Positions 10,227-39,001 are shown, counted from the first letter of the stretch. The stretch: 64,000 bases of DNA from Alphaproteobacteria bacterium (GCA_050297015.1 JBNKRZ010000013.1:3676-67675), one strand, 5' to 3'. Made by a program: numbers and translations. The notes: generated by a model from the letters alone, not told the origin.

Positions 10227-10231
10227 AGCCC

Positions 10232-13992: not shown

Positions 13993-14008
13993 GCAAAAAG
14001 GAAGATGA

Positions 14009-19152: not shown

Positions 19153-19284
19153 AACTTCTATCCTTTAGTCAGGTTATAATGGTGACGTTTTTGAAATATA
19201 TTCGTTTCTACTTACTTCTGTAAATCGTTACTCATGTAGAGTTTCTTATGCCTCGTGCAAAAATAATCAAACGACGATAGGGGG

Positions 19285-20622
19285 CTATTCTTCTTTTAAT
19301 ACAGGTTGAAGGAATAATACGCCCATCGGTGTTCCCGCTTTTATGATAATAAGAGGTTCAATGTCTTCATTTTCCTCGTTTATAATATCAATGACGGCTC
19401 CGGATGCTTCTTCAAAACCGGCGAAGAGTTCTTCTCGTGGGTTGAGATCTTCGGTTGATTCGGTGGCTGTTTCTCCGGATACGGTAACGGTTGTGCTTCC
19501 TGCTTCCGCGATGGCCGATGTCATGCCTTCAAGGAAAGCGGCTGCGGCGGGAATAAACACACGGCGGAAGTAACGATGGTCAACATCGGTTGCCATGCCA
19601 ACATTGCTTGTTTCGGGGTCCAGGGCAATGGCATCAATGCTTTGTGAGATGCCATCAATTATAATACCTTCGAAAGAGACAACCAAGACTTCTTCTTCTA
19701 CGGAAAAGCTACCAATCAGGCGGCTACCGGCAAGCGGTCCGCTAACGAGTTGTGCCAAAACGGGCCCTTCGGCATCCGAATTTGCTTCAATTAGCAGCTG
19801 AGCATATTCAATTTCCCCTGCGGGAATAATAATTTCTTGTGCGTCTTTATCTGTATCGCTTGCTGTTGCCGTTGTTCCGGATGCCGATGAAGAAGAGGTT
19901 GCGGAGTCGCTTCCATCCTCCTCCAGAAAATCAGGAGAGGTGACCGTTAAATAGCGGGCTTCTAAAGGGGCTTGTCCTTCGAGAACGGTTTGCATTTGCG
20001 CGCCCATAGCATCGGCAAGCGCTTCTATAGCTTCGGTGTTGGCCCCCTTTGTTTCTTGTGACGTGCGCAACTTTTCCGCGGCAGCGTTACGCTGGGCTTC
20101 TTCGTCTTCTAATTGCTTTCTTTGTTCTAGTTCCTGACGTTGACGCTCGTCTTGAATGCGTCGCCAGCGTTCAAGAGGGTCTTCCTGTTTTTGTTTTTCT
20201 TCGATGTCGGGAACCGTGTCAACGGCCACTGCGAGGGGAACGGGAATAGCGCTCGTTCCTGTTGCCATGGCCTCTTCGAAACGTTTTTGGTTTTGTTCTT
20301 CTACGGCTTCACGATAGGCTTCACTAACTTCTTCCGTTCCCGGTGGTGCAGATACGTCAGACCCCGCTCTCATGACTGAGGTGTTTTCTATTACCGGCTG
20401 ATTATCGCCTCCAAACAGGACTACAGCGGCAACGATAACAAGCAAGACAGCCCCGATAGCGCCGAGTTTAACCATCGGGTTTTCATTCCACATCTCTTTG
20501 AAAGAGGAGCCGGTCTCAAACTCTTCAAAATCATCGAAATCCCCATTAGCATCGTCGTGATCGAAGTCACTATGATCCAAGGAATCATCATTATTCAGGT
20601 CATCGTTCAGATCATCATTCAT
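19285..20622 (-). CDS. dotG: DotG/IcmE (TraO/VirB10-like) T4BSS core protein
   Basis: 445 aa with an acidic N-terminus, a TM segment and a charged coiled region. C-terminal TrbI/VirB10-like domain IIIPAGEIEYAQLLIEANSDAEGPVLAQLVSGPLAGSRLIGSF...IIIKAGTPMGVLF. Start overlaps the dotH stop. Confidence 0.7.
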   Translation of the reverse strand: MNDDLNDDLNNDDSLDHSDFDHDDANGDFDDFEEFETGSSFKEMWNENPMVKLGAIGAVLLVIVAAVVLFGGDNQPVIENTSVMRAGSDVSAPPGTEEVSEAYREAVEEQNQKRFEEAMATGTSAIPVPLAVAVDTVPDIEEKQKQEDPLERWRRIQDERQRQELEQRKQLEDEEAQRNAAAEKLRTSQETKGANTEAIEALADAMGAQMQTVLEGQAPLEARYLTVTSPDFLEEDGSDSATSSSSASGTTATASDTDKDAQEIIIPAGEIEYAQLLIEANSDAEGPVLAQLVSGPLAGSRLIGSFSVEEEVLVVSFEGIIIDGISQSIDAIALDPETSNVGMATDVDHRYFRRVFIPAAAAFLEGMTSAIAEAGSTTVTVSGETATESTEDLNPREELFAGFEEASGAVIDIINEENEDIEPLIIIKAGTPMGVLFLQPVLKEE

Positions 20623-21652
20623 CAGAGCTGTTTCCTTCTTCTAGTATAGCCCGTATAATACGCCCGTTATCGGAAAGTAGAATAACAGGGGCGTTAGATA
20701 AGGCGTAGACATGCATGCCATCGGCTGATGAAACGGAACTATCCCAACCTGGTGACAGGAGTGTCAGCGGGGTTCTTACGTAAGTTTTCCCCGCGTAACT
20801 GTAGGCGCTTGTTCGCCCGTTTATACCCGATATAGAGAGCTTTTCCGCATCAGTAGGAGGGACACCGTCTAAAATCATATTAAGGAGCGAGCTTCCAGCT
20901 TTTATACTGATTCCGCCCTCGATTAACGGCGCAGAAGCCATGGGGCCGTATTCGGGGATCCGGGCATCAAAACGGTATTGTACGGTATCACGCCCTGTCT
21001 CTAGTGTGAAAATAACCGGTGTATCTAAGTCAAGAAGGCGCATGGACATGTTGCCGTGTGCAAAGTTAGAAAACGGTATTATGCGAATGATGTTACCGCC
21101 TTCTTCCGGATTTGTTATCTCAAAATTACCAGCCCAGCTCATATCCTGTATCGGCCAGGGCGAGCCTGTCACGTCCATTATGCTTACTGTTGTGACGTGA
21201 TTCGGAGCCATCTTGATAACAGGAGGGGTCGACCCCGGATCAAGCGAAACGGTTTCAACCTTAATTTCGGGGTGGGGGTACGGATAAATCGGCACTTCCA
21301 CGGCTTCCTGAACTTTATCGTATTGCTTTAGGACCTCACGGATCTCATCCGGTTCCAAAGGAAGAAGTCCTGTAACAGCCGCGTCGAAAGCCTGTTCTCG
21401 AATTTTTTTTCGTGTATTTTCTTGGGTGACGACGGCACTCTCCGGCGCCTGAGGAAGCCCGGATGTCGTTACCTGCATTTCTGGTGAACGGGGAGATACG
21501 TTTTTTGATACAGGCAATGCTGTATCTTTTAAACTAGGAGGGGCCCCTATTGTTGCACGAGAGAAACTGTCTTGTGCGAATGCATCGCTTAAGGGAAGGC
21601 CTAGAAAAGCAAAAGCCATCAGGGCAAATATTCCGGACTTTCGTGTTGTCAT
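20615..21652 (-). CDS. dotH: DotH/IcmK (TraN-like) T4BSS outer-membrane core protein
   Basis: 345 aa with a signal peptide. LDPGSTPPVIKM, DVTGSPWPI, LDGVPPTDAEKL and YVRTPLTLLSPGWDSSVSSADGMHVYAL match remembered Legionella IcmK blocks. Confidence 0.85.
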   Translation of the reverse strand: MTTRKSGIFALMAFAFLGLPLSDAFAQDSFSRATIGAPPSLKDTALPVSKNVSPRSPEMQVTTSGLPQAPESAVVTQENTRKKIREQAFDAAVTGLLPLEPDEIREVLKQYDKVQEAVEVPIYPYPHPEIKVETVSLDPGSTPPVIKMAPNHVTTVSIMDVTGSPWPIQDMSWAGNFEITNPEEGGNIIRIIPFSNFAHGNMSMRLLDLDTPVIFTLETGRDTVQYRFDARIPEYGPMASAPLIEGGISIKAGSSLLNMILDGVPPTDAEKLSISGINGRTSAYSYAGKTYVRTPLTLLSPGWDSSVSSADGMHVYALSNAPVILLSDNGRIIRAILEEGNSSDE

Positions 21653-21677
21653 GTGTTTAAGTCTCCTTGCTTATCCC

Positions 21678-22430
21678 TTAGCCGGGGGCGGCCAACCACT
21701 GTTCAATACCAATGCCGCTGGGGCTTTCCAGACGAGGGACGCGCACAACAATCATTTGGACCATTAAATTATCAGAGTTCATTTTGGGGCCGGATTGGTA
21801 TGTCACAATCATGGGGACTTGAACAACCCATTGGTAACGTCCCAGAACCAAGCCTTCTGACTGGATGACAGGTGCTCCACGTGGAGCCGCAGTTACGATT
21901 TGTTGATTCGCTTCGACTCGTTCCATCATGCGGGAAGATTGCAGGGCTGTTGTAAAGCTGTCCCAGCCCCGCTGTGTAAAGTTTCGGGATGATTCCTGTA
22001 AGCGCCGGCGGTAGTCGTTAAAGTTAAATGTCATGACTTCCGTTGCAGCTTGCGCAACCCACGACATAAGCGCCGGGGAACTTAAGTTTGGTTGAGAAAG
22101 GGGGACCATAGGGATCAGACGCCCATCTTCTGTCGTTGCAAAATAACGGTTTTCCGGTTTTTTTCCGTTCACGATAAAGAACATTATTCCGATAAGGGCT
22201 AGAACGGCGACTCCTTCAAGCAGAACAAGTTTTAAAAGTGAGCGGTATCCGTCACGGTAAAATTCGTTCCGGATCAAGACTGTACCCAAACCCTTTGTCA
22301 TATCAGAGGAGTTCCCCTCTTCTGTTTCAGCCTCTTTTTGGGGTGGCCGTGCTGCTTTCTTGGCATCCCTGATCCCAGATTTGGGCTTTGGCTGAGGGGG
22401 GGCTGTTCTCTTTTTTTGCTCTTCGGTCAT
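21678..22430 (-). CDS. dotI: DotI/IcmL (TraM-like) T4BSS inner-membrane protein
   Basis: LIRNEFYRDGYRSLLKLVLL..., YFATTEDGRLIPMVPLS and VQVPMIVTYQSG match the IcmL family. The ORF track extends to 22529; I prefer ATG at 22428-22430 (MTEEQKK...). Confidence 0.85.
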   Translation of the reverse strand: MTEEQKKRTAPPQPKPKSGIRDAKKAARPPQKEAETEEGNSSDMTKGLGTVLIRNEFYRDGYRSLLKLVLLEGVAVLALIGIMFFIVNGKKPENRYFATTEDGRLIPMVPLSQPNLSSPALMSWVAQAATEVMTFNFNDYRRRLQESSRNFTQRGWDSFTTALQSSRMMERVEANQQIVTAAPRGAPVIQSEGLVLGRYQWVVQVPMIVTYQSGPKMNSDNLMVQMIVVRVPRLESPSGIGIEQWLAAPG

Positions 22431-22602
22431 AATCTGTAGGGTCAGTTGAATTGATAAACAACGAATCTCTTTATTATGTACCAGAAAAAACCGTTCCCCT
22501 CCAAGAGCTAAAAGATAACATATCCGCAACTATCCCTGAAAAAAATGCAATGATGGGAAAAAACAGCTGGAGCCCTTTCAGGGATATGGTAGTTTTTGTG
22601 CA

Positions 22603-22649
22603 TTGTGATGTTAGAATATGTTAGAATATAAAAAGTGTATGTTAGCAAG
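22603..22649 (+). promoter_or_regulatory. Candidate promoter with tandem direct repeats upstream of the five-paralog operon
   Basis: TTGTGA (22603-22608), 18 bp, TATAAA (22627-22632). Perfect tandem GTTAGAATAT x2 (22610-22629) plus GTTAGCAAGA (22640-22649). Confidence 0.3.
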
Positions 22650-22663
22650 AGTGTTGGGAGAGC

Positions 22664-24109
22664 GTGCTCGGTGAGGGGCGCTACGGTAGGGCGTTGAAGC
22701 TTAGAATAAAAAAAGAAATATCTTGCGCGAATATTTCAGGAAGGCTGCCTGGTAAGTGGCGTTTCTGCATGTGTCTTGTTCTACTTTTGTCTTTCTTCTC
22801 TTTTTCAATGGTTCCTTTGCGGGATGTTTATGCAACAAGCTCTTCTTCCGGGGGGGGCGGCAGCGGAGGAAACCAGACGGCAGAACCCACGCATTCCAGC
22901 TCAAGCTGTAGCTCTGGCGCGCTTGCTCAGTTTTGTTTCGTGGCAGCCCTTGCCCATCTAGCAACGAGGTCAGCTATTAATAAAGCATATAGCGATACGG
23001 AAGATTATATCGCCGATGGCTTTCGTGACCATAGGCGGGATTTTATCTTGGGAGAGTTTTGGGAGAATATGGTTCTGGCCTCATTCAAGGCTATGGTCTC
23101 TGAAACGACAAGTATGTCTTTGGCCCAAGTGATGATGGCGGGCGCTTACTTTGATGCAAAACAGCAAATGAGCGTGCAACGTCTTTTTCAGACTAAAATT
23201 GCGCAGGCACATAAGGATTATTTCCCCAGTACAGGTATGTGTGTGATGGGAACCATGGCGCAAGGTCTTGCGGCGGCTAGCCGTAATGCTGAAAATACGG
23301 CATTTGTCATGAGTGAAAGGGCGCTGGAGCGTAATCTAAATAACGCTTCATCCAATGCGGCGCTGGGGGAGGGGGATGATAAATCTTCCCGGTTTTCACT
23401 TTTTAAAAGTAGGCACTGCGATCCCAGACATGGTGATGGACAATTTGTTGCGCTTTGCGGATCGACCCCCCCGGAAGGTTTTGATCGTGATGTAGATTAT
23501 ACCGCGACATTCGAGTATCCCTATACCCTTGATATAAATCTTTTTGATGCAAGTGTAACGGGGGCTGAAATGGATCTATGGGGGTTTGCTAACAATCTTT
23601 ATGGTCATGAGGTCTTTACGCCGATTCCTCCTTCTTATTTTTCTTTGGGCGATAATCAGCGGGAATATTTGAATTTGCGTTCCGTTGTTGCTAAGCGGAG
23701 TGTTGCTGAAAATTCATTTAACGCCCTTGTTTCAATGAAGGTGGCTGGGCCTCCTACGCCGTCAGGTGAAAACTATGTGCATGCTGTTTTGACGCAACTT
23801 GGTTTGTCGACGGATGAGGCTATGCATATTGTTGGTGAACGTCCGAGCTATTATGCGGCGATGGAGGTGTTAAGTAAAAAAATATACCAGGATCCCGAAT
23901 TTTACACGGATCTTTATGATAAACCTGTAAATGTTGATCGCAAGATTGCGGCGATGCGGTCTATCGGTTTGATGCAAGATATGGATATCTTTGAAAGCAA
24001 GCTGCGAAATGAAATGTTGCTTTCCATGATTCTTGAAGCGCGGCTCGATGATGCGCAGCAGGATTTGCAGGGAAGACTTGATGTCTTGCCGTCAGGAGGT
24101 AAACGTTAG
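22664..24109 (+). CDS. Paralog 1 of 5: signal-bearing protein of an unrecognised family (T4BSS-adjacent)
   Basis: 481 aa from GTG 22664 (alternative ATG 22769). N-terminal hydrophobic segment and a Ser/Gly-rich stretch. Family blocks YFDAKQQMSVQRLF, AHKDYFPSTGMCVMGT, KRSVAENSFN and GERPSYYAAMEVLSKKIYQDPEFYTDLYDKPVNVDRK. Confidence 0.8.
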   Translation: MLGEGRYGRALKLRIKKEISCANISGRLPGKWRFCMCLVLLLSFFSFSMVPLRDVYATSSSSGGGGSGGNQTAEPTHSSSSCSSGALAQFCFVAALAHLATRSAINKAYSDTEDYIADGFRDHRRDFILGEFWENMVLASFKAMVSETTSMSLAQVMMAGAYFDAKQQMSVQRLFQTKIAQAHKDYFPSTGMCVMGTMAQGLAAASRNAENTAFVMSERALERNLNNASSNAALGEGDDKSSRFSLFKSRHCDPRHGDGQFVALCGSTPPEGFDRDVDYTATFEYPYTLDINLFDASVTGAEMDLWGFANNLYGHEVFTPIPPSYFSLGDNQREYLNLRSVVAKRSVAENSFNALVSMKVAGPPTPSGENYVHAVLTQLGLSTDEAMHIVGERPSYYAAMEVLSKKIYQDPEFYTDLYDKPVNVDRKIAAMRSIGLMQDMDIFESKLRNEMLLSMILEARLDDAQQDLQGRLDVLPSGGKR

Positions 24110-25434
24110 TGCTGGGGCGTATTTTAAAGCCAGAGCTGGGAATAGATAAGAAGAGAAGCTTTGATAGGCTTGTCTTTTTCTCTCTTTTTATTTTTCTTTC
24201 TACGGTTTCTTACAGCCGTCCGGGTTATTCTTGTACGACATGCAGTATGATTTATTGTGAAGCCTCTAATACGGCAGATTTTGTCACTGAAGAACACAAT
24301 TATATTCGTGAGTATATGGGACCGGAATTTAATGACCTTGAGACCTTTATTCAGGATATTCTTGTCGAGAGATATATTTTACCGATGATTGATGCGCTTG
24401 CGACCCCTTCCCCCGCGTTATCGGCTTATTCTATGGGGATTATCGGGACGTTTTTTGATGCGAAAAACCAGTTGGAAGTCGAACGTATGTTTCAAGAGCT
24501 TTCTGCTGAAGCGCATAAAGATTATTTGCCCAGTGTCGGTGTTTGTAAGGTCGGAACCCTTATCCGCTCTTTGGCTGCCGCGGAGCAGACGGGGGGGGAG
24601 ACCGTTTCGATTTTAGCTAAACGTTCTCTGGATCGTCATTTGGGACGCGTGAATAGTGCCGCTTCTGAAGGGGTGAAAGAGGACGTGGAGTCCCGTTTTG
24701 AGCAGTTTCGAAATATTTACTGTAAGGGCAGTGATTTTGGCGCGGATTTCGCGCCCTTATGTTTAGGGACAAATCCTGCGCGCTATAATCGTGATGTTGA
24801 TTATGGTTTAACGGTTGATGATGCCATGACGTTGAATATTGCTTTTGGGGATTCAACCCTTAACGATACGGAAGAAGATATTTGGGCTTTATCTAACAAC
24901 CTTTATGGTTCCCGTGTTTTGCAGCGTATACCGGAAGTGTTCTTCCTGGATGAGGATAAGCAGCAAGCTATTTTGGATCAGCGTTCTGTTATTGCCAAGC
25001 GTAGTGTTGCGGAGAATTCATTTAATACGATTGTTGGTATGAAGACGCCGGGGTCGCTTGAGAGTGCTGATGCTTCCGGGGTTAATACGACAGGTTATAT
25101 GAATGTGGTGTTGGAGCAATTGGGAATTGCGGCGGATGAGGCCACTCACATATATGGTGAGCGCCCCAGTTATTATGCCCAGATGGATTTTTTGACGAAA
25201 AAAGTTTATCAGGACCCGAATTTCTATACGAACTTATATGATACGCCTGTGAATATTGATCGGAAACGGGTGACACTTCAGGCCATTGGTTTGATGCAGG
25301 ATTTTGATACGTTGGAGAGTTATTTGAGGACGGAAGCCATGCTTTCTGTTCTTTTGGAGTTGGAAGTGAATAAGTTGCAACGGAATGTGCAGGGAGATCT
25401 TTCAACGTGGACGACATCGGGGAAAAGGAATTAG
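24109..25434 (+). CDS. Paralog 2 of 5, same family
   Basis: 441 aa. GTG start overlaps the stop of paralog 1 by 1 nt. Blocks FFDAKNQLEVERMF, AHKDYLPSVGVCKVGT, KRSVAENSFN and GERPSYYAQMDFLTKKVYQDPNFYTNLYDTPVNIDRK. Confidence 0.85.
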   Translation: MLGRILKPELGIDKKRSFDRLVFFSLFIFLSTVSYSRPGYSCTTCSMIYCEASNTADFVTEEHNYIREYMGPEFNDLETFIQDILVERYILPMIDALATPSPALSAYSMGIIGTFFDAKNQLEVERMFQELSAEAHKDYLPSVGVCKVGTLIRSLAAAEQTGGETVSILAKRSLDRHLGRVNSAASEGVKEDVESRFEQFRNIYCKGSDFGADFAPLCLGTNPARYNRDVDYGLTVDDAMTLNIAFGDSTLNDTEEDIWALSNNLYGSRVLQRIPEVFFLDEDKQQAILDQRSVIAKRSVAENSFNTIVGMKTPGSLESADASGVNTTGYMNVVLEQLGIAADEATHIYGERPSYYAQMDFLTKKVYQDPNFYTNLYDTPVNIDRKRVTLQAIGLMQDFDTLESYLRTEAMLSVLLELEVNKLQRNVQGDLSTWTTSGKRN

Positions 25435-25453
25435 AAAAAGGAATTCTGTGCGG

Positions 25454-26767
25454 ATGATGCGATTTTGTCTGAAACATAAAAGTAAAAATATCTGTCGGGC
25501 TTTTGGGGCTTTGATGATGTTTGTTCTTTTGTGTGTCGTTTTGTCATCTGCGGCGAAAGCTGATTGTTCTTCCAGTAGGTGGGATGATCGCCAGGATCAG
25601 ATTAAAGATAATCGCGAAGATTTAATTGACTTTATTATCGCGCAATTTCGTCAGCACGAAATATGGTGGGTCGGTAATGATGGTGACCCGGGTAGAGAAG
25701 ATTTTTGGAATGATCATATATATCCGGCGTTGCACGACATTCCGCGCCATCTTTTTATGGTTGGTGAATATCAGGTTTTGGGCGTTGGTATGTTGTTTGA
25801 CGGCAAGCATCAAGTTGAAAGCGAGATGATATTTTCAAATATGGCGGCTGAGGCTCAAAAGGAATATCAGCCGAGCATGGGGATGTGTGCCATCGGTACG
25901 AATACACGTTCTCTTGCTGAAACGGAACGAAAGGCCCGTTATGTGACGGCTGTTCTGGGAAAGCGGGCTATGGATCGTCATTTGGGGAATGTAAATGTTA
26001 ACGCCGCAGCAGGAGCAAAAGAAGATAGCAATGGGCGGTTGGCTTTGTTCAAGGCTCGTTATTGTGATCTAGGGGATAATAATAACGGTTTGTCTGTTTT
26101 GTGCGATGGTGCGGCCGCGCCCGCGGCAACTCAAAACAAAGATGTTAGTTATTTTCAAACAATGGAAATGCCGAGAACACTGGAGCTTGATTTTGCTGCC
26201 AGTGAAACGGGTGACGAAATAGATGTTATCGCTCTGGAGAATAACCTTTACGGTCATGATGTGTTTACACGCCCTTCCCGTTATATTCTGGATGTGAAAG
26301 CCAATCAGGACGAGTACATGGATTTGCGCGCTCTTTTGGCTAAACGCAGCGTAGCAGAGTATTCCTTTAATAAGATCGCAGGGATGAAAGCCGCAGGATC
26401 GGAAATCGGGCAGCAAACGGGGGTTTTCGCACGTAATGCTCTTAAGCAACTGGCCGGAATAAATGATGATGAGGCCGTTACGATACTTGGTGAGCGCCCC
26501 AGTTATTATGCCCAGATGGAAATATTGGCGCAGAAGCTTTATCAAGACCCTGAATTTTATACGAGTCTCTATGATAAACCGGCAAATGTTTTGCGAAAAG
26601 ATGTCGCAATGCAGGCCATTAATTTGATGTTGGATCGTGATACTTACAACAGTGAATTGCGTTACGAGGCGATGTTAGCGGTTTTGCTCGAAATGGATGT
26701 AGAAAGACGTCAGAAGAAAAAAGAGAGCCGCCGCACGGCAATATCATCTCAAGGGAAAGGGCACTAA
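25454..26767 (+). CDS. Paralog 3 of 5, same family
   Basis: The ORF track starts at 25385, overlapping paralog 2. I prefer ATG 25454 (MMRFCLKHK..., followed by a signal peptide ending AAKA). Blocks LFDGKHQVESEMIF, AQKEYQPSMGMCAIGT, KRSVAEYSFN and GERPSYYAQMEILAQKLYQDPEFYTSLYDKPANVLRK. Confidence 0.8.
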   Translation: MMRFCLKHKSKNICRAFGALMMFVLLCVVLSSAAKADCSSSRWDDRQDQIKDNREDLIDFIIAQFRQHEIWWVGNDGDPGREDFWNDHIYPALHDIPRHLFMVGEYQVLGVGMLFDGKHQVESEMIFSNMAAEAQKEYQPSMGMCAIGTNTRSLAETERKARYVTAVLGKRAMDRHLGNVNVNAAAGAKEDSNGRLALFKARYCDLGDNNNGLSVLCDGAAAPAATQNKDVSYFQTMEMPRTLELDFAASETGDEIDVIALENNLYGHDVFTRPSRYILDVKANQDEYMDLRALLAKRSVAEYSFNKIAGMKAAGSEIGQQTGVFARNALKQLAGINDDEAVTILGERPSYYAQMEILAQKLYQDPEFYTSLYDKPANVLRKDVAMQAINLMLDRDTYNSELRYEAMLAVLLEMDVERRQKKKESRRTAISSQGKGH

Positions 26768-26768
26768 G

Positions 26769-28151
26769 TTGACGACGGGGCGTTCAAAAAGCTTTGATAG
26801 CAAGAAAAGAGGGGGCTTTAAAGGGCGTCTTTTGCGCGCGCTTTTGATCATTGGGCTTGTGATGAGTTTGATGTTCGGAGGCTGGGCTGTGCAGAAAAAA
26901 GCAGAGGCATGGTCTATTTGTCCCTGTGACTGTAATTTTGCGTGTTCACCGGTTGCGCACGGGATATTTGTTCTTTATATGCTGGCACAGCATGCGGCGA
27001 CACGTCTCTATTTTGATGTTTTAATGACATGGCATGAGTGGTGGCTCGAATACTATGTTTTTGATCTGCTTATTAGTCCCCCTCTTCATCATTTCCAAAC
27101 TCAGATTACCACATTGATGGCGAACCAGATGTTTATTTTGGGGGGCTTTTTCGATGCCAGCAATCAATTGGAAACGCAACAACTCTTCGCCCGTTTAACG
27201 GCTAAGGCCCATAAGGATTATCGTGTCAGTGTTGAAATGTGTACCTTTGGCACAAACGTACGGGCTTTGGCGGCGACGGATCGTAATGTGCGTTCATGGG
27301 CGCTCTTTTTTAGCAAGTACAATGTCAAACGTCAGACGGGGGCGTTGAACAATAACGCAGCTCAAGGGCCTAAAGAGGATCGGGAAGGTCGTTTGGCGCT
27401 CTTTAAACAAGATTTTTGTGATAAAGATGATAATAACCGGGTGTATGTTGGTGATGCGGATACCGGGTTTGCTACGATTTGTGCGGATGCAGATTTTTCT
27501 ACGCGGAACAAAGATGTTGATTTTACAAATACCGTAGCTTTGCCTAAGACGCTTGATGCGGTTCTTCTTGATGTGGATATTGATGATGGTTTGCATGATG
27601 ATGAGCGTAATATTTTGGCTTTGCAAAGTCATCTTTACGGTCACGATGTGTTTACGCGGCCGACCCGTTATATTATGGAGATTGAAAAAAATCAGGGGCG
27701 CTATATGGATTTGCGGTCGGTTCTTGCAAAACGCAGTGTTGCTCAGAATTCATTTGATGCGCTTGTCGCGATGAAAGCGCGCGGACCATTGGCAAGTGAG
27801 GATACCGCAGGGTATATGGGGGGTATCCTGCAGGAACTGGGGCTTTCTACATCGGAAGTTGATGCGATTATTGGTGAGCGGCCGAGTTATCTCGCGCAAA
27901 TGGAAGTATTAGCCAAAAAGATATATCAAAATCCTGAATTTTATGTGGGGCTTTATGATTCTCCGGTGAATGTTCGCCGAAAAAGTGCGGCAATGCAGGC
28001 GATTAAAATGATGCTGGATCGTGACATATATGAAAGTTATATGCGCAGCGAAGCGATTATGTCCGTCTTGTTGGAAACAAGACTTTTGGGCAAGCATGAT
28101 GAAGTGGAAAATCGGTTGCAAAACATGGAAGTGGGGGCGCTCGCACCATGA
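26769..28151 (+). CDS. Paralog 4 of 5, same family
   Basis: 460 aa with a TTG start 1 nt after the paralog 3 stop. Blocks FFDASNQLETQQLF, AHKDYRVSVEMCTFGT, KRSVAQNSFD and GERPSYLAQMEVLAKKIYQNPEFYVGLYDSPVNVRRK. Confidence 0.8.
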   Translation: MTTGRSKSFDSKKRGGFKGRLLRALLIIGLVMSLMFGGWAVQKKAEAWSICPCDCNFACSPVAHGIFVLYMLAQHAATRLYFDVLMTWHEWWLEYYVFDLLISPPLHHFQTQITTLMANQMFILGGFFDASNQLETQQLFARLTAKAHKDYRVSVEMCTFGTNVRALAATDRNVRSWALFFSKYNVKRQTGALNNNAAQGPKEDREGRLALFKQDFCDKDDNNRVYVGDADTGFATICADADFSTRNKDVDFTNTVALPKTLDAVLLDVDIDDGLHDDERNILALQSHLYGHDVFTRPTRYIMEIEKNQGRYMDLRSVLAKRSVAQNSFDALVAMKARGPLASEDTAGYMGGILQELGLSTSEVDAIIGERPSYLAQMEVLAKKIYQNPEFYVGLYDSPVNVRRKSAAMQAIKMMLDRDIYESYMRSEAIMSVLLETRLLGKHDEVENRLQNMEVGALAP

Positions 28152-30169
28152 TAATAAAGGGGATTAGTAAATATTTAGAAGAGGCCAGAGCTATTCAAAG
28201 GCTTGTGCTTTTTTGTGTGGGCTTTTTCTTTCTCTCATTAATTACTCGTCCGGCCGAGGCGCAACTGTTTCAGGCAAGTATTGATGGGATGGATCAGAAA
28301 CAGGCTGCGATGTTGGCGGCGGCTAACGATATGCAAGCCGCACTTGCCGCCATGGGAACCAGTTTTATTGCGTGGCCTGACCCGTCGGATCCTACTCATA
28401 ACCCTCCGATTGTTTCAGAGTTTTCTGGGGCTTTGTTGTCTCAATTGTTAACGGCCCTTGGTACGGCAGCTGATTATGATGCGCGTTTGCAAGCGATAGA
28501 GGATCGTCTGGTTAATATTTGCAGCGCTACGAATGTTGGATCCGCATCTATGGCTTTAGGCGAAGATTTTTCTGAGATTCTTGCTGATTATAATGAGTTT
28601 GCTGAAAACATGGCGCCGAATATATCTCACGGTAGTAGCGGACCGGCAACAAGAACAAGCTATTCTCTTGCGTACTTGATAACGGAGATTTATGCGGATG
28701 CTAATGGGTTTATTGCTGATATTCACTCTCACCACATATCGGAAGATGCGAGCTATTATAGAGTGTATGTCAGTGCCTTTTCACTCTCACCTTCTTTCAC
28801 CCATAACATTCCAAAGACCGCGATGAACGATTTTTCTGTGGCGGTGGAGGCGCTAATGACGGCGAAGAATTCATTTTCGACTATTCTGGCGGATTTGGAC
28901 ACGGCATTTCATGATGAATTATCAGCTCAATATGCGGCTTGTTTGACCCCCGGCATTATTGATGATTCTGGGGTTGCAGATACGCCGGGCGGCGATGGTT
29001 TTGGTGGGGGGGCGGCGGATGCTGACGGCGATGGCGTTCCGGATTGGGAAAGCGATCATTTGGGCGGTGATGGGGGCGAAGATCATTATAATGCGATGAT
29101 TGCGTATCTTGATGCGAATTGGCTGCCAGTTATTCCCCTTATGATTCATGATTTTGCTGTCTCCGTCATGACTCAGATGGGGGCGATCGGGATGCTTTTC
29201 GATGCCAAGCATCAATTGGAAACGCAACGGTTGTTTAATATAAAAACGCTAGAGGCTCATCATGATTACCAGCCGGATCTACAAATGTGCCGGATGGGAA
29301 CGAATATTCGCTCTTTGGCTGCTTCCGAGGAAATTGCCGATCATCATGTGCGTTTGATTGACCGTGTGCTGACGGTTCGGGAACATGGAGAGAAAAATTC
29401 TGTTGCGGGCGGTGGAACGGCTGATGATATAGCCGACCGTTTAGAGCGCTTTAAAACGACCTATTGCGATGTTGATGATAATAATGGTGAGTTGGTTGAT
29501 ATGTGCACCGGAAGCGCACCGGCGGATCGTATCAATAAGGATATAGATTATGCCCGCACTTTGGGGGATGCTTATACGCTGGATTTGGATCTCCTTGAAA
29601 CAAGCGCTACGATGTCGGCTGATGAACAGGATATGGTGGCCTTGGCGCGGAATCTTTTTGCGCATCAATTACCGGAACGTTTTCTTGAAACTTTTATAAC
29701 AAAGGCCGAAGCAAAAGACGATATTATGGATGTTCGCTCGTTGCAGGCCGTGCGCAGTGTTGCCCGTAATAGCTATGCTCATTTGGCGGCGATGAAAGCG
29801 GAAGGAAGCGGTGACGTTGATGACTTTATGGAGCATCTAATTCGTAATTTGGGCGTTTCTTCAACAGATGAAATTGAAACATTGGTCGGTGAGAACCCGA
29901 GTTATTATGCGCAGATGGAAGTTTTGACCAAGAAGATATATCAAGACCCTGCTTTTTATACGAATTTGTACACTTCGACAGAGAACGTGAAACGGATCGG
30001 CGCGGCTTTGAATGCGATTCAATTGATGCAAGATCGCGATCGTTTTGAAGCGTCTTTGCGCCGAGAGGTTCTGATTTCTTTGATTTTAGAAATGAACTTG
30101 CGCGATGAACAGGACTATGTCGATGGTGAAATTTTCCGTGACTTGGCACGTGACATAGGCAGCCAATAA
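28148..30169 (+). CDS. Paralog 5 of 5, with a roughly 235-aa extra N-terminal region including an Asp/Gly-rich motif
   Basis: 673 aa with an ATGA start/stop overlap with paralog 4. Blocks LFDAKHQLETQRLF, AHHDYQPDLQMCRMGT, VRSVARNSYAH and GENPSYYAQMEVLTKKIYQDPAFYTNLY. Extra segment contains GGDGFGGGAADADGDGVPDWESDHLGGDGGED. Confidence 0.85.
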   Translation: MIIKGISKYLEEARAIQRLVLFCVGFFFLSLITRPAEAQLFQASIDGMDQKQAAMLAAANDMQAALAAMGTSFIAWPDPSDPTHNPPIVSEFSGALLSQLLTALGTAADYDARLQAIEDRLVNICSATNVGSASMALGEDFSEILADYNEFAENMAPNISHGSSGPATRTSYSLAYLITEIYADANGFIADIHSHHISEDASYYRVYVSAFSLSPSFTHNIPKTAMNDFSVAVEALMTAKNSFSTILADLDTAFHDELSAQYAACLTPGIIDDSGVADTPGGDGFGGGAADADGDGVPDWESDHLGGDGGEDHYNAMIAYLDANWLPVIPLMIHDFAVSVMTQMGAIGMLFDAKHQLETQRLFNIKTLEAHHDYQPDLQMCRMGTNIRSLAASEEIADHHVRLIDRVLTVREHGEKNSVAGGGTADDIADRLERFKTTYCDVDDNNGELVDMCTGSAPADRINKDIDYARTLGDAYTLDLDLLETSATMSADEQDMVALARNLFAHQLPERFLETFITKAEAKDDIMDVRSLQAVRSVARNSYAHLAAMKAEGSGDVDDFMEHLIRNLGVSSTDEIETLVGENPSYYAQMEVLTKKIYQDPAFYTNLYTSTENVKRIGAALNAIQLMQDRDRFEASLRREVLISLILEMNLRDEQDYVDGEIFRDLARDIGSQ

Positions 30170-30266: not shown

Positions 30267-32624
30267 ATGTCGTTAAGCGGTCTGGAAACAGCTTTGTCAG
30301 GATTACGCGTTTCGCAACAACAGCTTAACGTGATTTCCAGCAATATATCGAATGTAAGTACAGAAGGGTATAGCCGGAAAATTTTGCCGCAATCAACGGT
30401 CGTTGTTGAGGGCGCTTCCGTTGGGGTGCGCGGCGATGCCATCATTCGTAAAGTTGATATGAACCTGGAGCGGGATCTATGGACGCAAGTCAGTAGTGTA
30501 GCCAGTCTTGATACAACAGCCGCTTATTTGAACCGTATTCAGGAATTTCACGGATCACCTGAATTGGAGATTTCAATCGCTGCAGAAATTGCCGATTTGC
30601 GGGATACTTTTTCCGCCCTGTCTGATAGCCCGGAAGATACATTTTTACAGCGCAGTGTTGTCGATCAGGCTGATCTTGTTGCGAACAAGATTAATGATTT
30701 TTCATCACTCATTACCGAGATGCGTAATGATGCTCAAGATGAAATGGACGTATCTGTTAACAGAATTAATGATTTGTTGGGGCAAATTGCAGAATATAAT
30801 CAGGAAATAAAATTTAACCAAGCGGTTAACAAAACAACGGCGGCGCTTGAAGATAAGCGTGATGAGCTGGTCAAGTCTTTGTCTTCCGAAATAGAGGTTA
30901 GTTCTTTTATTCGCGGGGATGGTGTTTTGGTTGTACAAACGGCGCGTGGCGTCCAGTTGGCGGATGAAAATGCTGAGATTGTTCACTTTGATTATTCTGT
31001 TTTGGGATCCTTAAGTGCTTATCCGTCTTCTGCCAGCGGCGTGTATGTTGGCGGTGATCCGGCTACGAATCCAAGTGCCATTGAAATAACACAAACGGGT
31101 GTAAGTGGTCGTTTGGGGGCTTTGATAGATTTGCGTGACAGTACGTTACCGCGCCAAATGGCCGAGCTTGATGAACTGGCTCATAAAATGGCACTACGTT
31201 TTGAGGCGCAAGGATTACGTTTGTTTACAGATTCTTCCGGGCAGATTCCTGCGGACACAGCCCCGATTCCCGATCCGCCGGGGCCGTTGACGCCTGTGCC
31301 TTACATAGGATTTTCAACGGAAATACAGGTGAATAGTCTGGTTGTGGCTGATAATACGTTGGTTCAGACAGGGACGGTGAACACGGATTTGACGGTGCAG
31401 AGTGGTTCAAATGAAGTTATTCGCCGAATTCTTGAGTATAGCTTCGGCGATGTCGAGTATCAGGAAGCCGTCGGCGATGTTGATGTGCGCGCTAATGCGA
31501 CGGGCGCCGTCACGCTACAGGAATGGTTGGGGCTGTATTCAGAAAATGCCGTTTCGGGAACGACGGATCTGAGTGCCTATACGGATGTTAATGCTTTAAT
31601 TGCGGCGGCAGGTGATGTTTTCTCGCCTCCTTCTGCGCCGCCCCTTCTTGATGAATTTCAAATTACGTTTGAGGAGCCGCGTCTAGGGTTAGGGCCGGAG
31701 ACAATTACTGTTAATTTAACTGATGCTGCGGCTTTGGCCGGTACCGATGCGCTTGACCAGATTATTTCTGAAATTAATAACGAGATTGCGGGGCTGCCTG
31801 TTGATCCGGCATTTAGTGCCGTTGCCAGCCGTAGTCCTTATGGTCAGCTCATAATTACGACAACAGGGAATGTAACGATTGATGCCACTTCCTTTGGTGC
31901 GACAGCGATGGGTACGGACGGCCTTGAGTATCTTGGACTTAGTGAAGATACGTTTGTGACAACCGATCCTTATTTTGATGTGCAGGTTGGGAACGATCTT
32001 TCCGTTCGAGTGACGATAGAACCCGGCGACATGGAGACGGAACTTCTCGACAAACTGGAATATGATAGCGCTACGCAGGTCGGCGTGCCGGGGCTGTATG
32101 CTGATATTGATGCCGCCACGGGCTTTTTGACAATACGGCCGGGGAATGATGATAGTAATGGCGGGCCGGTATTTGGCGGTGATATTTCCTTGCTGGGTGG
32201 TGCTTTTGAATCGGATGGTACGGGAGGAAGCGGCGTGGCTTTAGGGGCCACGATTTTGGAATCCCTATTTGGCGCGAATGATCCGGTGAGTGATGTTTTG
32301 TATAGCGCGAATAATCCCTTTCGCACGAGCAATCTGGGGCCGGGTGCAGATATCGAAACGGGCAGCATAAGTACAACGAACCTGATTGATTATGCGCAAA
32401 AAATGGTCAATCGGCAAACCGAGGAAATTAACCTGACCGAGGCCAAACGTGAGGATGAAGAAACGTTCCGTCAGTTGTTGCAAACGCGTCTGACGGATGA
32501 ATCCGGCGTGAATATCGATGAAGAGCTTTCCAACATGATTGTTGTTCAGACGGCTTATGCTGCGGCGGCGCGGACGGTTACGGCCATTGATGAAATGTTC
32601 CAAACACTCATAAGCATGATTTAA
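30267..32624 (+). CDS. flgK: Flagellar hook-associated protein 1 (FlgK)
   Basis: 785 aa. N-terminus MSLSGLETALSGLRVSQQQLNVISSNISNVSTEGYSRK and C-terminus ...MIVVQTAYAAAARTVTAIDEMFQTL are typical of FlgK. Confidence 0.9.
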   Translation: MSLSGLETALSGLRVSQQQLNVISSNISNVSTEGYSRKILPQSTVVVEGASVGVRGDAIIRKVDMNLERDLWTQVSSVASLDTTAAYLNRIQEFHGSPELEISIAAEIADLRDTFSALSDSPEDTFLQRSVVDQADLVANKINDFSSLITEMRNDAQDEMDVSVNRINDLLGQIAEYNQEIKFNQAVNKTTAALEDKRDELVKSLSSEIEVSSFIRGDGVLVVQTARGVQLADENAEIVHFDYSVLGSLSAYPSSASGVYVGGDPATNPSAIEITQTGVSGRLGALIDLRDSTLPRQMAELDELAHKMALRFEAQGLRLFTDSSGQIPADTAPIPDPPGPLTPVPYIGFSTEIQVNSLVVADNTLVQTGTVNTDLTVQSGSNEVIRRILEYSFGDVEYQEAVGDVDVRANATGAVTLQEWLGLYSENAVSGTTDLSAYTDVNALIAAAGDVFSPPSAPPLLDEFQITFEEPRLGLGPETITVNLTDAAALAGTDALDQIISEINNEIAGLPVDPAFSAVASRSPYGQLIITTTGNVTIDATSFGATAMGTDGLEYLGLSEDTFVTTDPYFDVQVGNDLSVRVTIEPGDMETELLDKLEYDSATQVGVPGLYADIDAATGFLTIRPGNDDSNGGPVFGGDISLLGGAFESDGTGGSGVALGATILESLFGANDPVSDVLYSANNPFRTSNLGPGADIETGSISTTNLIDYAQKMVNRQTEEINLTEAKREDEETFRQLLQTRLTDESGVNIDEELSNMIVVQTAYAAAARTVTAIDEMFQTLISMI

Positions 32625-32658
32625 CGTGAAAACATAGGATAAACAAAGAGATAAGAAA

Positions 32659-33741
32659 ATGACCAATATATCAACAATAGCCCAGTCTCTTAATCAGATT
32701 GAACGTTTCAAAACGATGCAAGCGGATTTAGCAACATTACAATATCAATTGAGCTCCGGCAAAAAAGCGCGCTTATTTAGTGAGTTAGGAGGTGACGTTA
32801 CAAAGTCGGAAAGGGCGCGGGCGAATTTTCAGTCGCTCGAAACATATATCAATAATATTGATGTTGCGGCGCGCCGTAGCAAAATGATGACTAATGCTAT
32901 TCAGGAAACGCAAGCGCAAGCTGAAAACATTCTTAATGCCTTGGTTGTTCAAACTCAGGAGGGGGAAATTGAGCTGGCTTCAATTAATAAGCTGGCGGGG
33001 GATATACAGAATTATTTGATTACGCTTTATAATCAGAATGATGGGGATCGTTATTTGTTCGGCGGTGCGGAAACGCAAGATCTCCCTTTGAATGATACAG
33101 GCGCGTTGGATACCTATCTCCAGACGAACATCAGTAATTGGGTGAATACCGGCCCGATGACAGTGACAAGCGATCAACTCATCAGCAGTTATCGCGACAC
33201 AACGCAGCTGAACGATACCATTGTGGGCTATTCGGCAAAATTAAGTAGCGGTTCAACGCGCGGTGTTTATGTTCGGGTCGATGAAAGGGCCGAAATGGAA
33301 TACACCGTCCGGGCCAATGAAGCGAATTTCCGTGACGTTCTTGTGTCCGTCTCCATGATTAAAAATCTGACGGGGGGGATTGATGAGGTGACGCTCGAAA
33401 GCACCGATGCTACGGGCACGGTTACAGCACCGGGGGCCGATAGAAGCGAGCAGAGTGACAATTTTTACGCCGTTTTTAATGATTTGGCCGAGATGCTGAC
33501 AACGGCGATTGATGGGCTCGATCAGTCGCATTATGATCTTAGTCAGATGCAGGCGCGTATGTCTCAGATCCGTGACAACCATGAGCAGGATAAAAACGTT
33601 CAGGCCAGCATTATCAGTGACGTAGAAGATGCTGATATGAACGATACAGCTGTAAAGCTTAATTTGCTTCAAGTGCAAATGGAGGCGGCGTACCGCGTTA
33701 CCGCCAGCATTAGCGATCTGACATTGGTGAATTTTATATAG
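32659..33741 (+). CDS. flgL: Flagellar hook-associated protein 3 (FlgL)
   Basis: 360 aa with flagellin-like N- and C-terminal helices (…LATLQYQLSSGKK…; …LNLLQVQMEAAYRVTASISDLTLVNF). Located directly downstream of flgK. Confidence 0.75.
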   Translation: MTNISTIAQSLNQIERFKTMQADLATLQYQLSSGKKARLFSELGGDVTKSERARANFQSLETYINNIDVAARRSKMMTNAIQETQAQAENILNALVVQTQEGEIELASINKLAGDIQNYLITLYNQNDGDRYLFGGAETQDLPLNDTGALDTYLQTNISNWVNTGPMTVTSDQLISSYRDTTQLNDTIVGYSAKLSSGSTRGVYVRVDERAEMEYTVRANEANFRDVLVSVSMIKNLTGGIDEVTLESTDATGTVTAPGADRSEQSDNFYAVFNDLAEMLTTAIDGLDQSHYDLSQMQARMSQIRDNHEQDKNVQASIISDVEDADMNDTAVKLNLLQVQMEAAYRVTASISDLTLVNFI

Positions 33742-35162: not shown

Positions 35163-35286
35163 AATAGCAAAGTGCTACGCCTCCCCACCTTTGTGACGTG
35201 ATTTGAGAGGAAATTCAAGAGGGTGTGATTAAAATAAAGGGCTTATCCGCAGATGCAAAGCATGATGCCTTGCTTTTGGAGGGGGG

Positions 35287-35577
35287 CTAGCCATAATCAT
35301 CTAGTTTTCTGCGGTGAAGCGAAACATAACCTGGGCGGTTTACACCAATAATCCAAACGCGTAAGGCGCGCATTGCGGCCGAAAAAGTAAGGCCTCTTTT
35401 TTCTAGAAAACGAAAAATCAACACTGTGATAATGGCAAAGGCAATGGTGATCGGGCGAAAGTAAACCAAAAGGATGCAAAAGGGCAAGGCCGCCCGCGCA
35501 TCCATGTTGAAAAAACGCGCTGGCCGCATGGTGTCACGCCAATGCCATACGAGACCTTCTTCTTCTTCTTCGCTCAT
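35287..35577 (-). CDS. icmT: IcmT/TraK-like T4BSS inner-membrane protein
   Basis: 96 aa. HWRDTMRPARFFNMDARAALPFCILLVYF...LTFSAAMRALRVWIIG matches the IcmT family pattern. Confidence 0.8.
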   Translation of the reverse strand: MSEEEEEGLVWHWRDTMRPARFFNMDARAALPFCILLVYFRPITIAFAIITVLIFRFLEKRGLTFSAAMRALRVWIIGVNRPGYVSLHRRKLDDYG

Positions 35578-35654
35578 GAAAAATATAACCTCTTAAAGTG
35601 TTTCTTCGCGAGTTCCCTAATATACAACTGTTACGCAAAAAGGTGAATAAAGTC

Positions 35655-35932: not shown

Positions 35933-35949
35933 TAGAGAGCAGATAAGAA

Positions 35950-37931: not shown

Positions 37932-37937
37932 GGATTT

Positions 37938-38998: not shown

Positions 38999-39001
38999 GG
39001 T

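What the first reader, a model, noticed from the sequence alone, without database searches (positions are those of the whole stretch)
22664..30169. Operon of five translationally coupled paralogs of an unrecognised secreted-protein family, divergent from dotI
Seen in sequence: there are five consecutive same-strand ORFs of about 440-670 aa. Their junctions imply coupling: a TAGtg overlap at 24107-24111, a 1-nt gap at 26768 and an ATGA overlap at 28148-28151.

All five share the following:
- an N-terminal hydrophobic signal or anchor
- a Gly-rich amphipathic segment ending in FDAK/FDGK/FDAS, followed by xQxExxxxF
- AHKDY.P..G(M/V)C..GT
- three positionally conserved Cys (one in the MC..GT block and two in a (Y/F/H)C(D/K)....C loop)
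- KRSVAENSFN
- an almost invariant C-terminal block GERPSYYAQMEVL.KKIYQDPEFYT.LYD.P.NV.RK..A(M/L)(Q/R/N)(A/S)I.LM(Q/L)D

The N-terminal thirds are divergent. By eye the genes look more AT-rich than the flanking housekeeping genes.

I cannot assign this family to any named domain. Inference: the position between two Dot/Icm blocks, the secretion signals and the conserved cysteines (with a DsbC-like gene in the same neighbourhood) suggest an expanded periplasmic or surface T4BSS component or a secreted substrate family. Their size and export signal are compatible with IcmX/TraW-class proteins, but I cannot verify that by eye. If it holds, five distinct paralogs could form a hetero-oligomer where other systems use a homo-oligomer. 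This last point is pure speculation.
Basis: partly seen in the sequence, partly recalled or inferred. Interest (0 to 1): 0.9.

Follow-up and report, generated by a model that had tools for sequence, protein, structure and literature searches.

The report
Five tandem IcmX/TraW-like secretion-channel genes
The five genes are diverged copies of IcmX/TraW, the protein that caps the central channel of Dot/Icm-type (type IVB) secretion machines; they sit in the chromosome of a Micavibrio-like predatory bacterium, whereas the other such machines compared here (Legionella, IncI1 and pND6-2 plasmids) carry one copy, so this lineage may have diversified the part of the machine that meets its prey.

Summary
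Five same-strand, tightly packed ORFs (22664-30169) are paralogs (34-42% identity). Each has an N-terminal signal peptide, three invariant cysteines and a near-invariant C-terminal block.

They hit nothing in Pfam, NCBIfam or PDB sequences, but they are not an orphan family:
- A profile-profile comparison links them to Pfam's 'TraW-like' family PF28212 (98.3% probability, E 2.5e-14). On plasmids such as pND6-2, members of that family lie in the IcmX position next to IcmW and DotA.
- That family links in turn to IncI1 TraW (92%).
- AlphaFold models of two different paralogs each pick Legionella IcmX (PDB 9ngy) as the only meaningful hit among 350,542 chains.

So these are IcmX/TraW (VirB5-class) components of a chromosomal type IVB secretion system.

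The family is confined to Micavibrio-type genomes and always lies beside Dot/Icm genes. Array size varies: 5 copies in 29 complete arrays (a 30th has one gene split in two), 3 in 22, 4 in 9 and 2 in 1. In an 18-locus lineage that includes this window, the five genes are strict positional orthologs.

The conserved helices look like a shared core. The N-terminal and middle regions diverge, and a few relatives carry fused M23 peptidase, GDSL lipase or C1q modules.

Verdict: a new multi-copy variant of a known component. A strict five-different-subunit ring is possible but unproven.

The parts
22664..24109 (+). Paralog 1 (up to 481 aa; start uncertain: GTG 22664, TTG 22694 or ATG 22769). IcmX/TraW-like, signal peptide ...VYA|TSS.
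   Evidence: position-1 orthogroup in 18 loci
24109..25434 (+). Paralog 2 (441 aa). Its GTG start overlaps the TAG of paralog 1; AGGAGG lies 10 nt upstream.
25454..26767 (+). Paralog 3 (437 aa from ATG 25454; the longest ORF starts at 25385). Modelled with AlphaFold2, pLDDT 88.
   Evidence: (P0001)
26769..28151 (+). Paralog 4 (460 aa, TTG start 1 nt after the stop of paralog 3).
28148..30169 (+). Paralog 5 (673 aa), the 'terminal type'. The conserved IcmX/TraW-like core is residues ~310-673. It follows a lineage-specific N-terminal extension of ~300 aa that has no detectable homolog and is modelled with low confidence.
   Evidence: last-position genes form a nearly pure clade (47 of 61)
22530..22663 (.). 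134-nt divergent intergenic region between dotI and paralog 1 (presumed promoters; none stood out above chance).
17896..22529 (-). DotF/TraP-like (17896-19152, weak match), DotG/IcmE (19285-20622), DotH/IcmK (20615-21652), DotI/IcmL (21678-22529).
30267..33741 (+). flgK (30267-32624) and flgL (32659-33741). They start 97 nt downstream of paralog 5 on the same strand, with no terminator-like site between. They are not part of the family but are syntenic with it in almost all relatives.
33750..40995 (-). Second T4BSS block: TcpQ-domain protein (33750-35162), IcmT (35287-35577), DotB (35950-37104), DotC (37083-37931), DotD (37938-38450), TrbN-like lytic transglycosylase (38594-38998), unknown 330-aa protein (39002-39994), DsbG-like thiol-disulfide isomerase (40102-40995).

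Best explanation
What the genes are. The five genes encode Sec-exported paralogs of IcmX/TraW. This is the VirB5-class protein of type IVB secretion systems. [quoted passage not shown]

Where they are. The window comes from a Micavibrio-type (Micavibrionales) predatory alphaproteobacterium. Its chromosomal Dot/Icm-like system carries a tandem, translationally coupled array of 2-5 such genes in place of the single gene seen in Legionella and on IncI1 and pND6-2-type plasmids.

How they probably work (inferred):
- All copies keep the long N-proximal helix (G..FDAK.QLETQRLF..A.AHKDY), the cysteine-bearing segment and the C-terminal helices. These are taken to be the parts that build the oligomer and dock it in the machine.
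- The region before that helix and the middle 'extended' domain evolve fast. In some relatives they carry added modules (M23 peptidase, GDSL lipase, C1q).
- The paralogs are therefore most likely made together and assembled on the same machine, either as mixed oligomers or as alternative caps. They would share one core and present several different outer surfaces at the end of the channel that meets the prey envelope.
- A separate 'terminal-type' paralog (paralog 5 here) is present in nearly every array and probably has its own non-redundant role.

Shown: paralogy, export signals, homology and fold class, gene linkage, copy-number variation, positional orthology. Inferred: co-assembly, exposure of the variable regions, and a role in prey contact.
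For: Homology:
- Family profile against 71 TraW-like (PF28212) proteins: hhalign probability 98.3%, E 2.5e-14, 259 columns, with the three Cys and the C-terminal motifs aligned (single sequence 95.9%).
- The PF28212 member on pND6-2 lies after an IcmW homolog (PF23130, E 5e-18) and divergent from DotA/TraY. This is the icmV-icmW-icmX arrangement.
- The PF28212 profile against IncI1 TraW: 92%, E 6e-7.
- R64 TraW, IcmX and VirB5 share one row, 'pentamer', in the review table.

Fold:
- Models of paralog 3 (pLDDT 88) and paralog 5 (core above 90) both rank 9ngy_AP1 first (E 4e-3 and 3.8e-3, probability 1.00, about 232 columns). The next hits are at E 0.8 and 0.36.
- 9ngy_FP1 is DotA, so AP1 is IcmX.
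- The models share IcmX's described architecture of a signal peptide, N-terminal helix, extended domain and C-terminal helices.

Context:
- In all 62 complete arrays the genes lie between DotIHG and FlgKL/TcpQ-DotB-DotC. Four loci lack DotIHG on the left but keep the right-hand block.

Coupling: overlapping or 1-nt junctions with Shine-Dalgarno-like sequences.

Shared core and variable surface:
- The N-proximal helix region is as conserved between paralogs (0.57) as between orthologs (0.55).
- The middle region scores 0.38 against 0.37-0.48, and the N region 0.26 against 0.26-0.36 for positions 1-4.

Non-redundancy: each of paralogs 1-4 falls in an exclusive clade of 18 genes from 18 loci, all at the same array position. 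47 of 61 last-position genes form a pure clade.

Added modules: M23 peptidase, GDSL lipase, C1q.
Against: - No direct sequence-level hit to IcmX, TraW or VirB5 models.
- The Foldseek matches are weak in absolute terms (TM about 0.3, E about 4e-3).
- No DotA or IcmW homolog lies within 10 kb of any array. The usual icmW-icmX-dotA neighbourhood is therefore missing, and I could not check whether a canonical single-copy IcmX exists elsewhere in these genomes.
- Oligomeric state, co-assembly, localisation and any role in predation are untested.
- Fused enzymatic or binding modules are rare (a handful among about 130 extensions scanned).
- Orthologs are barely more alike than paralogs in the variable regions, so fast drift is as good an explanation as adaptive diversification.
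Confidence: 0.78

Rival explanations
1. Strict hetero-pentamer. In this lineage the five paralogs each occupy one fixed position of the five-fold IcmX ring (1:1:1:1:1), replacing a homo-pentamer with a pseudo-symmetric hetero-pentamer.
For: - IcmX and VirB5 are pentamers.
- Five is the commonest array size (29 of 62 complete arrays, plus one array with a split gene).
- Five orthogroups are kept in the same order in 18 loci despite only about 50% ortholog identity.
- Translational coupling favours equimolar synthesis.
- The core helices are as conserved between paralogs as between orthologs.
Against: - Arrays of 3 (22 loci), 4 (9) and 2 (cultured M. aeruginosavorus) are common.
- Eleven other five-copy arrays arose by different duplications.
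- No multimer model or experiment is available.
Confidence: 0.15
2. Secreted cargo. The proteins are substrates or toxins rather than machine parts: alpha-helical, possibly pore-forming proteins delivered to prey, some carrying hydrolase domains.
For: - Legionella IcmX is itself released into the medium in a T4BSS-dependent way.
- Occasional M23 and GDSL fusions.
- The variable regions evolve fast.
Against: - Sec-type signal peptides. From general knowledge rather than a tool result, Dot/Icm substrates normally carry C-terminal signals.
- Homology to a structural component.
- A fixed position inside the core gene cluster in all loci.
- A strongly conserved core, atypical of effector families.
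Confidence: 0.06
3. Flagellar accessory proteins. The genes are co-transcribed with flgK-flgL and are unrelated to type IV secretion.
For: - Same strand and immediately upstream of flgK-flgL in about 90% of loci.
- A 97-nt gap with no terminator-like site.
Against: - L005, L015 and L032 keep the array but lack flgKL at this site.
- Homology and fold point to TraW/IcmX.
- The plasmid homologs occur in non-flagellar conjugation clusters.
Confidence: 0.02

Closest known systems
Legionella pneumophila IcmX (VirB5 equivalent of the Dot/Icm T4BSS; PDB 9ngy)
   Same: - A Sec-exported protein of about 440-470 aa encoded in a Dot/Icm cluster.
- Signal peptide, long N-proximal helix, loop-rich middle domain and long C-terminal helices.
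- The only meaningful structural match for two paralog models.
   Different: - No detectable sequence similarity.
- IcmX is single-copy and lies beside icmW/icmV/dotA. Here there are 2-5 tandem copies divergent from dotI, with no dotA or icmW nearby.
- An extra helix precedes the conserved helix.
- Three invariant cysteines.
TraW of IncI1 plasmids (R64 type) and Pfam PF28212 'TraW-like' proteins of pND6-2-type MPF_I plasmids
   Same: - Homologous by profile-profile comparison (98.3% to PF28212; PF28212 to IncI1 TraW 92%).
- The same three cysteines and the same C-terminal motifs.
- A thioredoxin/Dsb-like gene and M23-peptidase/TraW-like fusions also occur near the plasmid genes.
   Different: - The plasmid proteins have a lipoprotein-like A-C-C-G start. 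The Micavibrio proteins do not.
- Single copy on plasmids.
- The Micavibrio family is not captured by the PF28212 or NF033888 models.
- A chromosomal system; no relaxase gene was recognised among the window ORFs scanned.
Bartonella Trw system: tandem variant copies of trwJ (VirB5) and trwL (VirB2)
   Same: Tandem duplication and divergence of the VirB5-class gene inside a T4SS locus. The copies are thought to be co-expressed and to present variant surfaces for target-cell recognition.
   Different: - Trw is a type IVA system.
- trwJ is co-amplified with trwI/trwH (VirB6/VirB7) and a pilin.
- The target is the mammalian erythrocyte.
- Here only the IcmX/TraW gene is amplified, in a type IVB system of a bacterial predator.
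Rickettsiales rvh T4SS with duplicated components
   Same: A T4SS 'enriched with gene duplication' (abstract of PMC4676284).
   Different: From general knowledge rather than a tool result: rvh duplicates VirB4, VirB6, VirB8 and VirB9 and lacks VirB5. It is a type IVA system. Not examined here.

Membership tests
IcmX/TraW (VirB5-class) component of type IVB secretion systems | Sequence or profile similarity to TraW/TraW-like proteins | tested here: met
   hhalign of A2 against A3 (PF28212 members): 98.3%, E 2.5e-14. A3 against IncI1 TraW: 92%. Direct library models do not reach the family, and A2 against a single IncI1 TraW sequence is not significant.
IcmX/TraW (VirB5-class) component of type IVB secretion systems | IcmX-like fold (signal peptide, N-terminal helix, extended domain, C-terminal helices) | tested here: met
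   Two AlphaFold2 models each give 9ngy_AP1 (IcmX) as the top and only meaningful Foldseek hit. TM is only about 0.3, so the support is moderate.
IcmX/TraW (VirB5-class) component of type IVB secretion systems | Sec signal peptide, periplasmic or exported | tested here: met
   Heuristic hydrophobicity and AxA analysis of all five. No dedicated predictor was available.
IcmX/TraW (VirB5-class) component of type IVB secretion systems | Encoded within a Dot/Icm (MPF_I) gene cluster | tested here: met
   Window and 80+ related loci.
IcmX/TraW (VirB5-class) component of type IVB secretion systems | Neighbourhood icmV-icmW-icmX / traV-traW-traX next to dotA/traY | tested here: not met
   No DotA/TraY, IcmW, TraV or TraX homolog within 10 kb of any array. 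The array is divergent from dotI instead.
IcmX/TraW (VirB5-class) component of type IVB secretion systems | Forms a pentamer on the DotA/VirB6 pentamer at the central axis | not testable with these tools
   Only monomer prediction was available. Needs a multimer model, cryo-ET or biochemistry.
IcmX/TraW (VirB5-class) component of type IVB secretion systems | One gene per system | tested here: not met
   2-5 tandem copies per locus. This is the feature that makes it a variant.
Type IVA VirB5/TrbJ/TraC family | Match to VirB5-type sequence models or structures | tested here: not met
   No Pfam or NCBIfam hit. No VirB5/TrwJ/TraC chain among the top 50 Foldseek matches. The relationship is only through the published IcmX = VirB5 equivalence.
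Bartonella-Trw-style amplified surface components | Tandem, divergent copies of the VirB5-class gene in one T4SS locus | tested here: met
   This is an analogy of organisation, not homology of the loci.
Bartonella-Trw-style amplified surface components | Co-amplification of pilin and the VirB6/VirB7 partners; proven role in target-cell adhesion | tested here: not met
   Only the IcmX/TraW-like gene is repeated. Adhesion was not testable.

The most novel reading that the evidence does not exclude
In the lineage of this window, the five positionally conserved orthogroups each fill one position of the five-fold IcmX/VirB5 ring on DotA. That would be the first heteromeric, pseudo-symmetric cap of a type IV secretion channel. 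The same chromosomal T4BSS, overlooked in the 2011 Micavibrio genome paper, would be the conduit through which epibiotic predators breach and drain their prey. The variable heads, sometimes with peptidase or lipase modules, would do the envelope contact.
Probability: 0.12. Interest if true: 0.85.

Novelty: new variant of a known kind. Interest (0 to 1): 0.6.

Why it matters
IcmX/VirB5 proteins sit at the business end of type IV secretion machines, and how they open the channel and engage the target cell is an active question. A clade in which this single component has been multiplied to 2-5 stably inherited, co-encoded variants is a natural experiment on which parts are structural core and which are target-facing.

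It also points to a concrete candidate apparatus for Micavibrio's 'leeching' predation, whose mechanism is unknown. The reference genome paper reported no type IV system. Only a survey has since noted protein-secretion T4BSSs in Micavibrionales.

M. aeruginosavorus is culturable and has the minimal two-gene array, so the idea can be tested.

Tried and rejected
- Direct library searches of all five proteins found nothing relevant: Pfam, NCBIfam, and PDB sequences by single sequence and by profile.
- The family profile against a single IncI1 TraW sequence was not significant. The link only appeared through the pND6-2-type TraW-like family, found by a weak tblastn hit (E 0.05).
- IncI1 TraW against PDB sequences did not reach IcmX either.
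- R64 (AP005147) is not in the plasmid collection; another IncI plasmid was used instead.
- UPGMA clustering of the 249 paralogs was dominated by outliers and was uninformative. Best-hit tallies and a neighbour-joining tree replaced it.
- The promoter and terminator scan gave no more sites than shuffled sequence, so the operon structure rests on gene spacing alone.
- The N-terminal extension of paralog 5 has no homolog, no Pfam domain and a low-confidence model.
- The Wang 2011 RNA-seq table might show attack-phase or attachment-phase expression of the M. aeruginosavorus genes next to flgK (GMV2433). The stored copy lacks those rows.
- A flagellar role was considered and rejected (see rivals).
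- 'Always five copies', my first impression from three loci, was overturned by the wider survey.
Full report
**1. The observation**

ORF listing shows five consecutive + strand ORFs between 22664 and 30169, of 481, 441, 460, 460 and 673 aa as longest ORFs. A five-way alignment gives 34-42% identity to paralog 1 and 69 invariant columns. These include G160, F163-D164, three cysteines and a long C-terminal block.

- TAG/GTG overlap at 24107-24111, with AGGAGG 10 nt upstream.
- TAA-g-TTG at 26765-26771.
- ATGA at 28148-28151.

Paralog 3 more likely starts at ATG 25454. That matches the 437-aa NCBI product P0001 and an AAGGA upstream, and leaves a 19-nt gap. The start of paralog 1 is ambiguous.

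Each protein has one N-terminal hydrophobic segment with a basic n-region and an AxA-like cleavage site, and no other hydrophobic segment. The array is 45.9% GC against 51.0% for the rest of the window.

**2. The surroundings**

Divergent on the left lie DotI/IcmL, DotH/IcmK, DotG/IcmE and a weak DotF/TraP-like protein.

On the right lie flgK and flgL on the same strand. Then, on the minus strand, come a TcpQ-domain protein, IcmT, DotB, DotC, DotD, a TrbN-like lytic transglycosylase, an unknown protein and a DsbG-like isomerase.

Elsewhere the window holds a Tad/type IVb-pilus-like cluster (4055-12436) and housekeeping genes.

**3. What the family is**

Pfam, NCBIfam and PDB sequence searches, by single sequence and by profile, find nothing. 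A database search finds hundreds of 'hypothetical' relatives. None has a precomputed Pfam hit on the family's core region; the only entries are Peptidase_M23 on two fused members. An exhaustive profile search finds 1,358 representative clusters at E<=1e-3, of which 829 are at E<=1e-30.

An AlphaFold2 model of paralog 3 (122-sequence alignment, pLDDT 88.3) is all-helical, with very long helices at 84-136, 142-177 and 376-433. Foldseek against 350,542 PDB chains returns one meaningful hit: 9ngy_AP1, from the in-situ DotA-IcmX protochannel of Legionella (E 4e-3, probability 1.00, 234 columns). The next hit is at E 0.8.

A second model, of paralog 5 (core pLDDT above 90), gives the same single hit (E 3.8e-3; next 0.36). 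In 9ngy, chain FP1 is DotA, so AP1 (417 residues) is IcmX.

Independently, a weak tblastn hit (E 0.05) led to a 376-aa hypothetical protein of plasmid pND6-2. It lies after an IcmW homolog (PF23130, E 5e-18) and a small ORF, divergent from DotA/TraY. That is the IcmX position.

Its relatives carry Pfam PF28212 'TraW-like', a model absent from the local Pfam copy. The profile-profile results are:
- Micavibrio family against 71 TraW-like proteins: 98.3% probability, E 2.5e-14 over 259 columns. The three cysteines, AKRSVAENSFN/ARASVAANSLN and the C-terminal motifs align.
- TraW-like profile against IncI1 TraW: 92%, E 6e-7.

Recent reviews place R64 TraW, IcmX and VirB5 in one equivalence class described as pentameric. 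Yue et al. show IcmX as a pentamer on the DotA pentamer, with a signal peptide, N-terminal helix, extended domain and C-terminal helices.

I therefore assign the family to the IcmX/TraW (VirB5-class) component of T4BSSs. It is a deep branch that existing models miss.

**4. Distribution and evolution**

A scan of one genome per GTDB species found 279 related stretches. The 80 loci kept are almost all Micavibrio or Micavibrio-like MAGs, including cultured M. aeruginosavorus.

In 62 loci with both flanks, the order is DotG-DotH-DotI(-) | paralogs(+) | FlgK FlgL(+) | TcpQ DotB DotC(-). FlgKL is absent at this site in three loci (L005, L015, L032). Four further loci lack DotIHG on the left but keep the right-hand block.

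Copy number among the complete arrays:

| Copies | Arrays |
|---|---|
| 5 | 29, plus one array with a split gene |
| 3 | 22 |
| 4 | 9 |
| 2 | 1 (M. aeruginosavorus) |

A neighbour-joining tree of the 249 paralogs puts each of window paralogs 1-4 in an exclusive clade of 18 genes from 18 loci, all at the same array position. 47 of 61 last-position genes form a pure clade.

For a 14-locus subset of that lineage, chosen by best-hit assignment to the window's paralogs, core identity between same-position orthologs averages 0.48-0.54 (range 0.38-1.00). The mean between paralogs within a genome is 0.43. So the window's five-gene array is ancient and each member has been retained. Eleven other five-copy arrays have a different duplication history.

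Conservation by region:

| Region | Between paralogs | Between orthologs |
|---|---|---|
| N-proximal helix | 0.57 | 0.55 |
| C-terminal helices | 0.50 | 0.56-0.65 |
| Middle domain | 0.38 | 0.37-0.48 |
| Pre-helix N region | 0.26 | 0.26-0.36 (positions 1-4) |

Many relatives have N-terminal extensions of 200-700 aa. Nearly all are without recognisable domains, but a few carry Peptidase_M23, GDSL lipase or C1q.

**5. How it probably works**

Shown: exported, co-encoded paralogs of the T4BSS channel-cap protein, with a common helical core and variable N-terminal and middle regions.

Inferred: they are co-produced and mounted on the same machine, as mixed oligomers or alternative caps. They would present different surfaces at the channel end that is proposed to be pushed to the target cell on activation in Legionella. 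The nearly universal terminal-type paralog probably has a distinct role.

Micavibrio is an obligate epibiotic predator of Gram-negative bacteria, so the obvious target is the prey envelope. This is a hypothesis.

The closest organisational precedent is the Bartonella Trw system. There, tandem variant copies of the VirB5 homolog TrwJ are thought to be co-expressed and to mediate host-specific adhesion.

It does not fit as a general rule, given the 2-, 3- and 4-copy arrays. I give it about 0.15.

**6. Limits**

- The link to IcmX itself is structural and modest (TM about 0.3). The link to TraW goes through an intermediate family.
- No DotA or IcmW lies within 10 kb of any array, and I could not search whole genomes for a canonical IcmX.
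- Signal peptides were judged heuristically.
- Co-transcription with flgKL cannot be decided.
- Expression data for the M. aeruginosavorus homologs were not retrievable.

**7. Novelty**

The 2011 M. aeruginosavorus genome paper states there is no type IV secretion system. A 2022 survey notes protein-secretion T4BSSs in seven Micavibrionales without further analysis. I found no paper in the searchable library that describes multi-copy IcmX/TraW genes in a T4BSS.

The finding is a new variant of a known component, of moderate to good interest.

Noticed in passing
window 30267-33741; loci L001-L085: flgK-flgL lie between the two T4BSS blocks, directly downstream of the paralog array on the same strand, in about 90% of Micavibrio-type loci. 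In M. aeruginosavorus ARL-13 the only listed FlgK (GMV2433) is far from the other flagellar genes (GMV0763-0775, GMV1697-1727), so this is probably the genuine flagellar gene. Co-regulation of late flagellar genes and T4BSS cap genes is possible.
   Followed up: partly
window 4055-12436: A Tad/type IVb-pilus-like cluster: prepilin peptidase (-), a single-domain response regulator, a secretin, a 526-aa protein with ASH/HYDIN-type Ig domains, a T2SSE ATPase, a weak T2SSF-like protein (10232-11452, E 8e-5, below Pfam's threshold) and a 327-aa ORF (11453-12436) with no family hit. It is followed by three small unknown ORFs (12546-14734), one with a pseudopilin-like N-terminus.
   Followed up: no
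window 33750-35162 (-): A 470-aa protein with a C-terminal TcpQ domain and a long Pro/Ala/Glu-rich linker, next to IcmT-DotB. On MPF_I plasmids a TcpQ-family gene sits beside the PilN thin-pilus secretin (L087), so this may be a remnant or adaptor of a pilus-T4BSS link.
   Followed up: no
window 38594-40995 (-); L090 13612-14163: A TrbN-like lytic transglycosylase and a DsbG-like thiol-disulfide isomerase are conserved members of the Micavibrio T4BSS cluster. A thioredoxin-like gene also accompanies the plasmid TraW-like gene. This fits the invariant cysteines of the family, which suggest disulfide-dependent folding.
   Followed up: partly
L090 10604-11539; P0078, P0095, P0231; L059 8306-11194: Fusions of the TraW/IcmX-like core with Peptidase_M23 occur on a plasmid-like contig and in two Micavibrio-type proteins. 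Fusions with GDSL lipase occur in two proteins, and with C1q in one. These are cell-envelope-degrading or binding modules on a channel-cap protein.
   Followed up: partly
literature (PMC3189940 against loci L009, L026, L046, L073): [quoted passage not shown] The T4BSS was apparently overlooked.
   Followed up: partly
window 14754-16763 (-) and 41054-42268 (-): A hybrid histidine kinase (HisKA-HATPase-REC-Hpt) and a FIST-domain sensor protein flank the T4BSS region. Both are also conserved next to the cluster in related loci (L001, L005), so they are possible regulators.
   Followed up: no
L002/L005 left flanks: Downstream of dotG the order (DotF-like, 309-324 aa, 126-127 aa, 229-234 aa, about 1,000 aa DotO/IcmB) mirrors Legionella icmG-icmC-icmD-icmJ-icmB. 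In the window's genome and in L001 this segment is replaced by asd and the histidine kinase, so the cluster is split there.
   Followed up: partly
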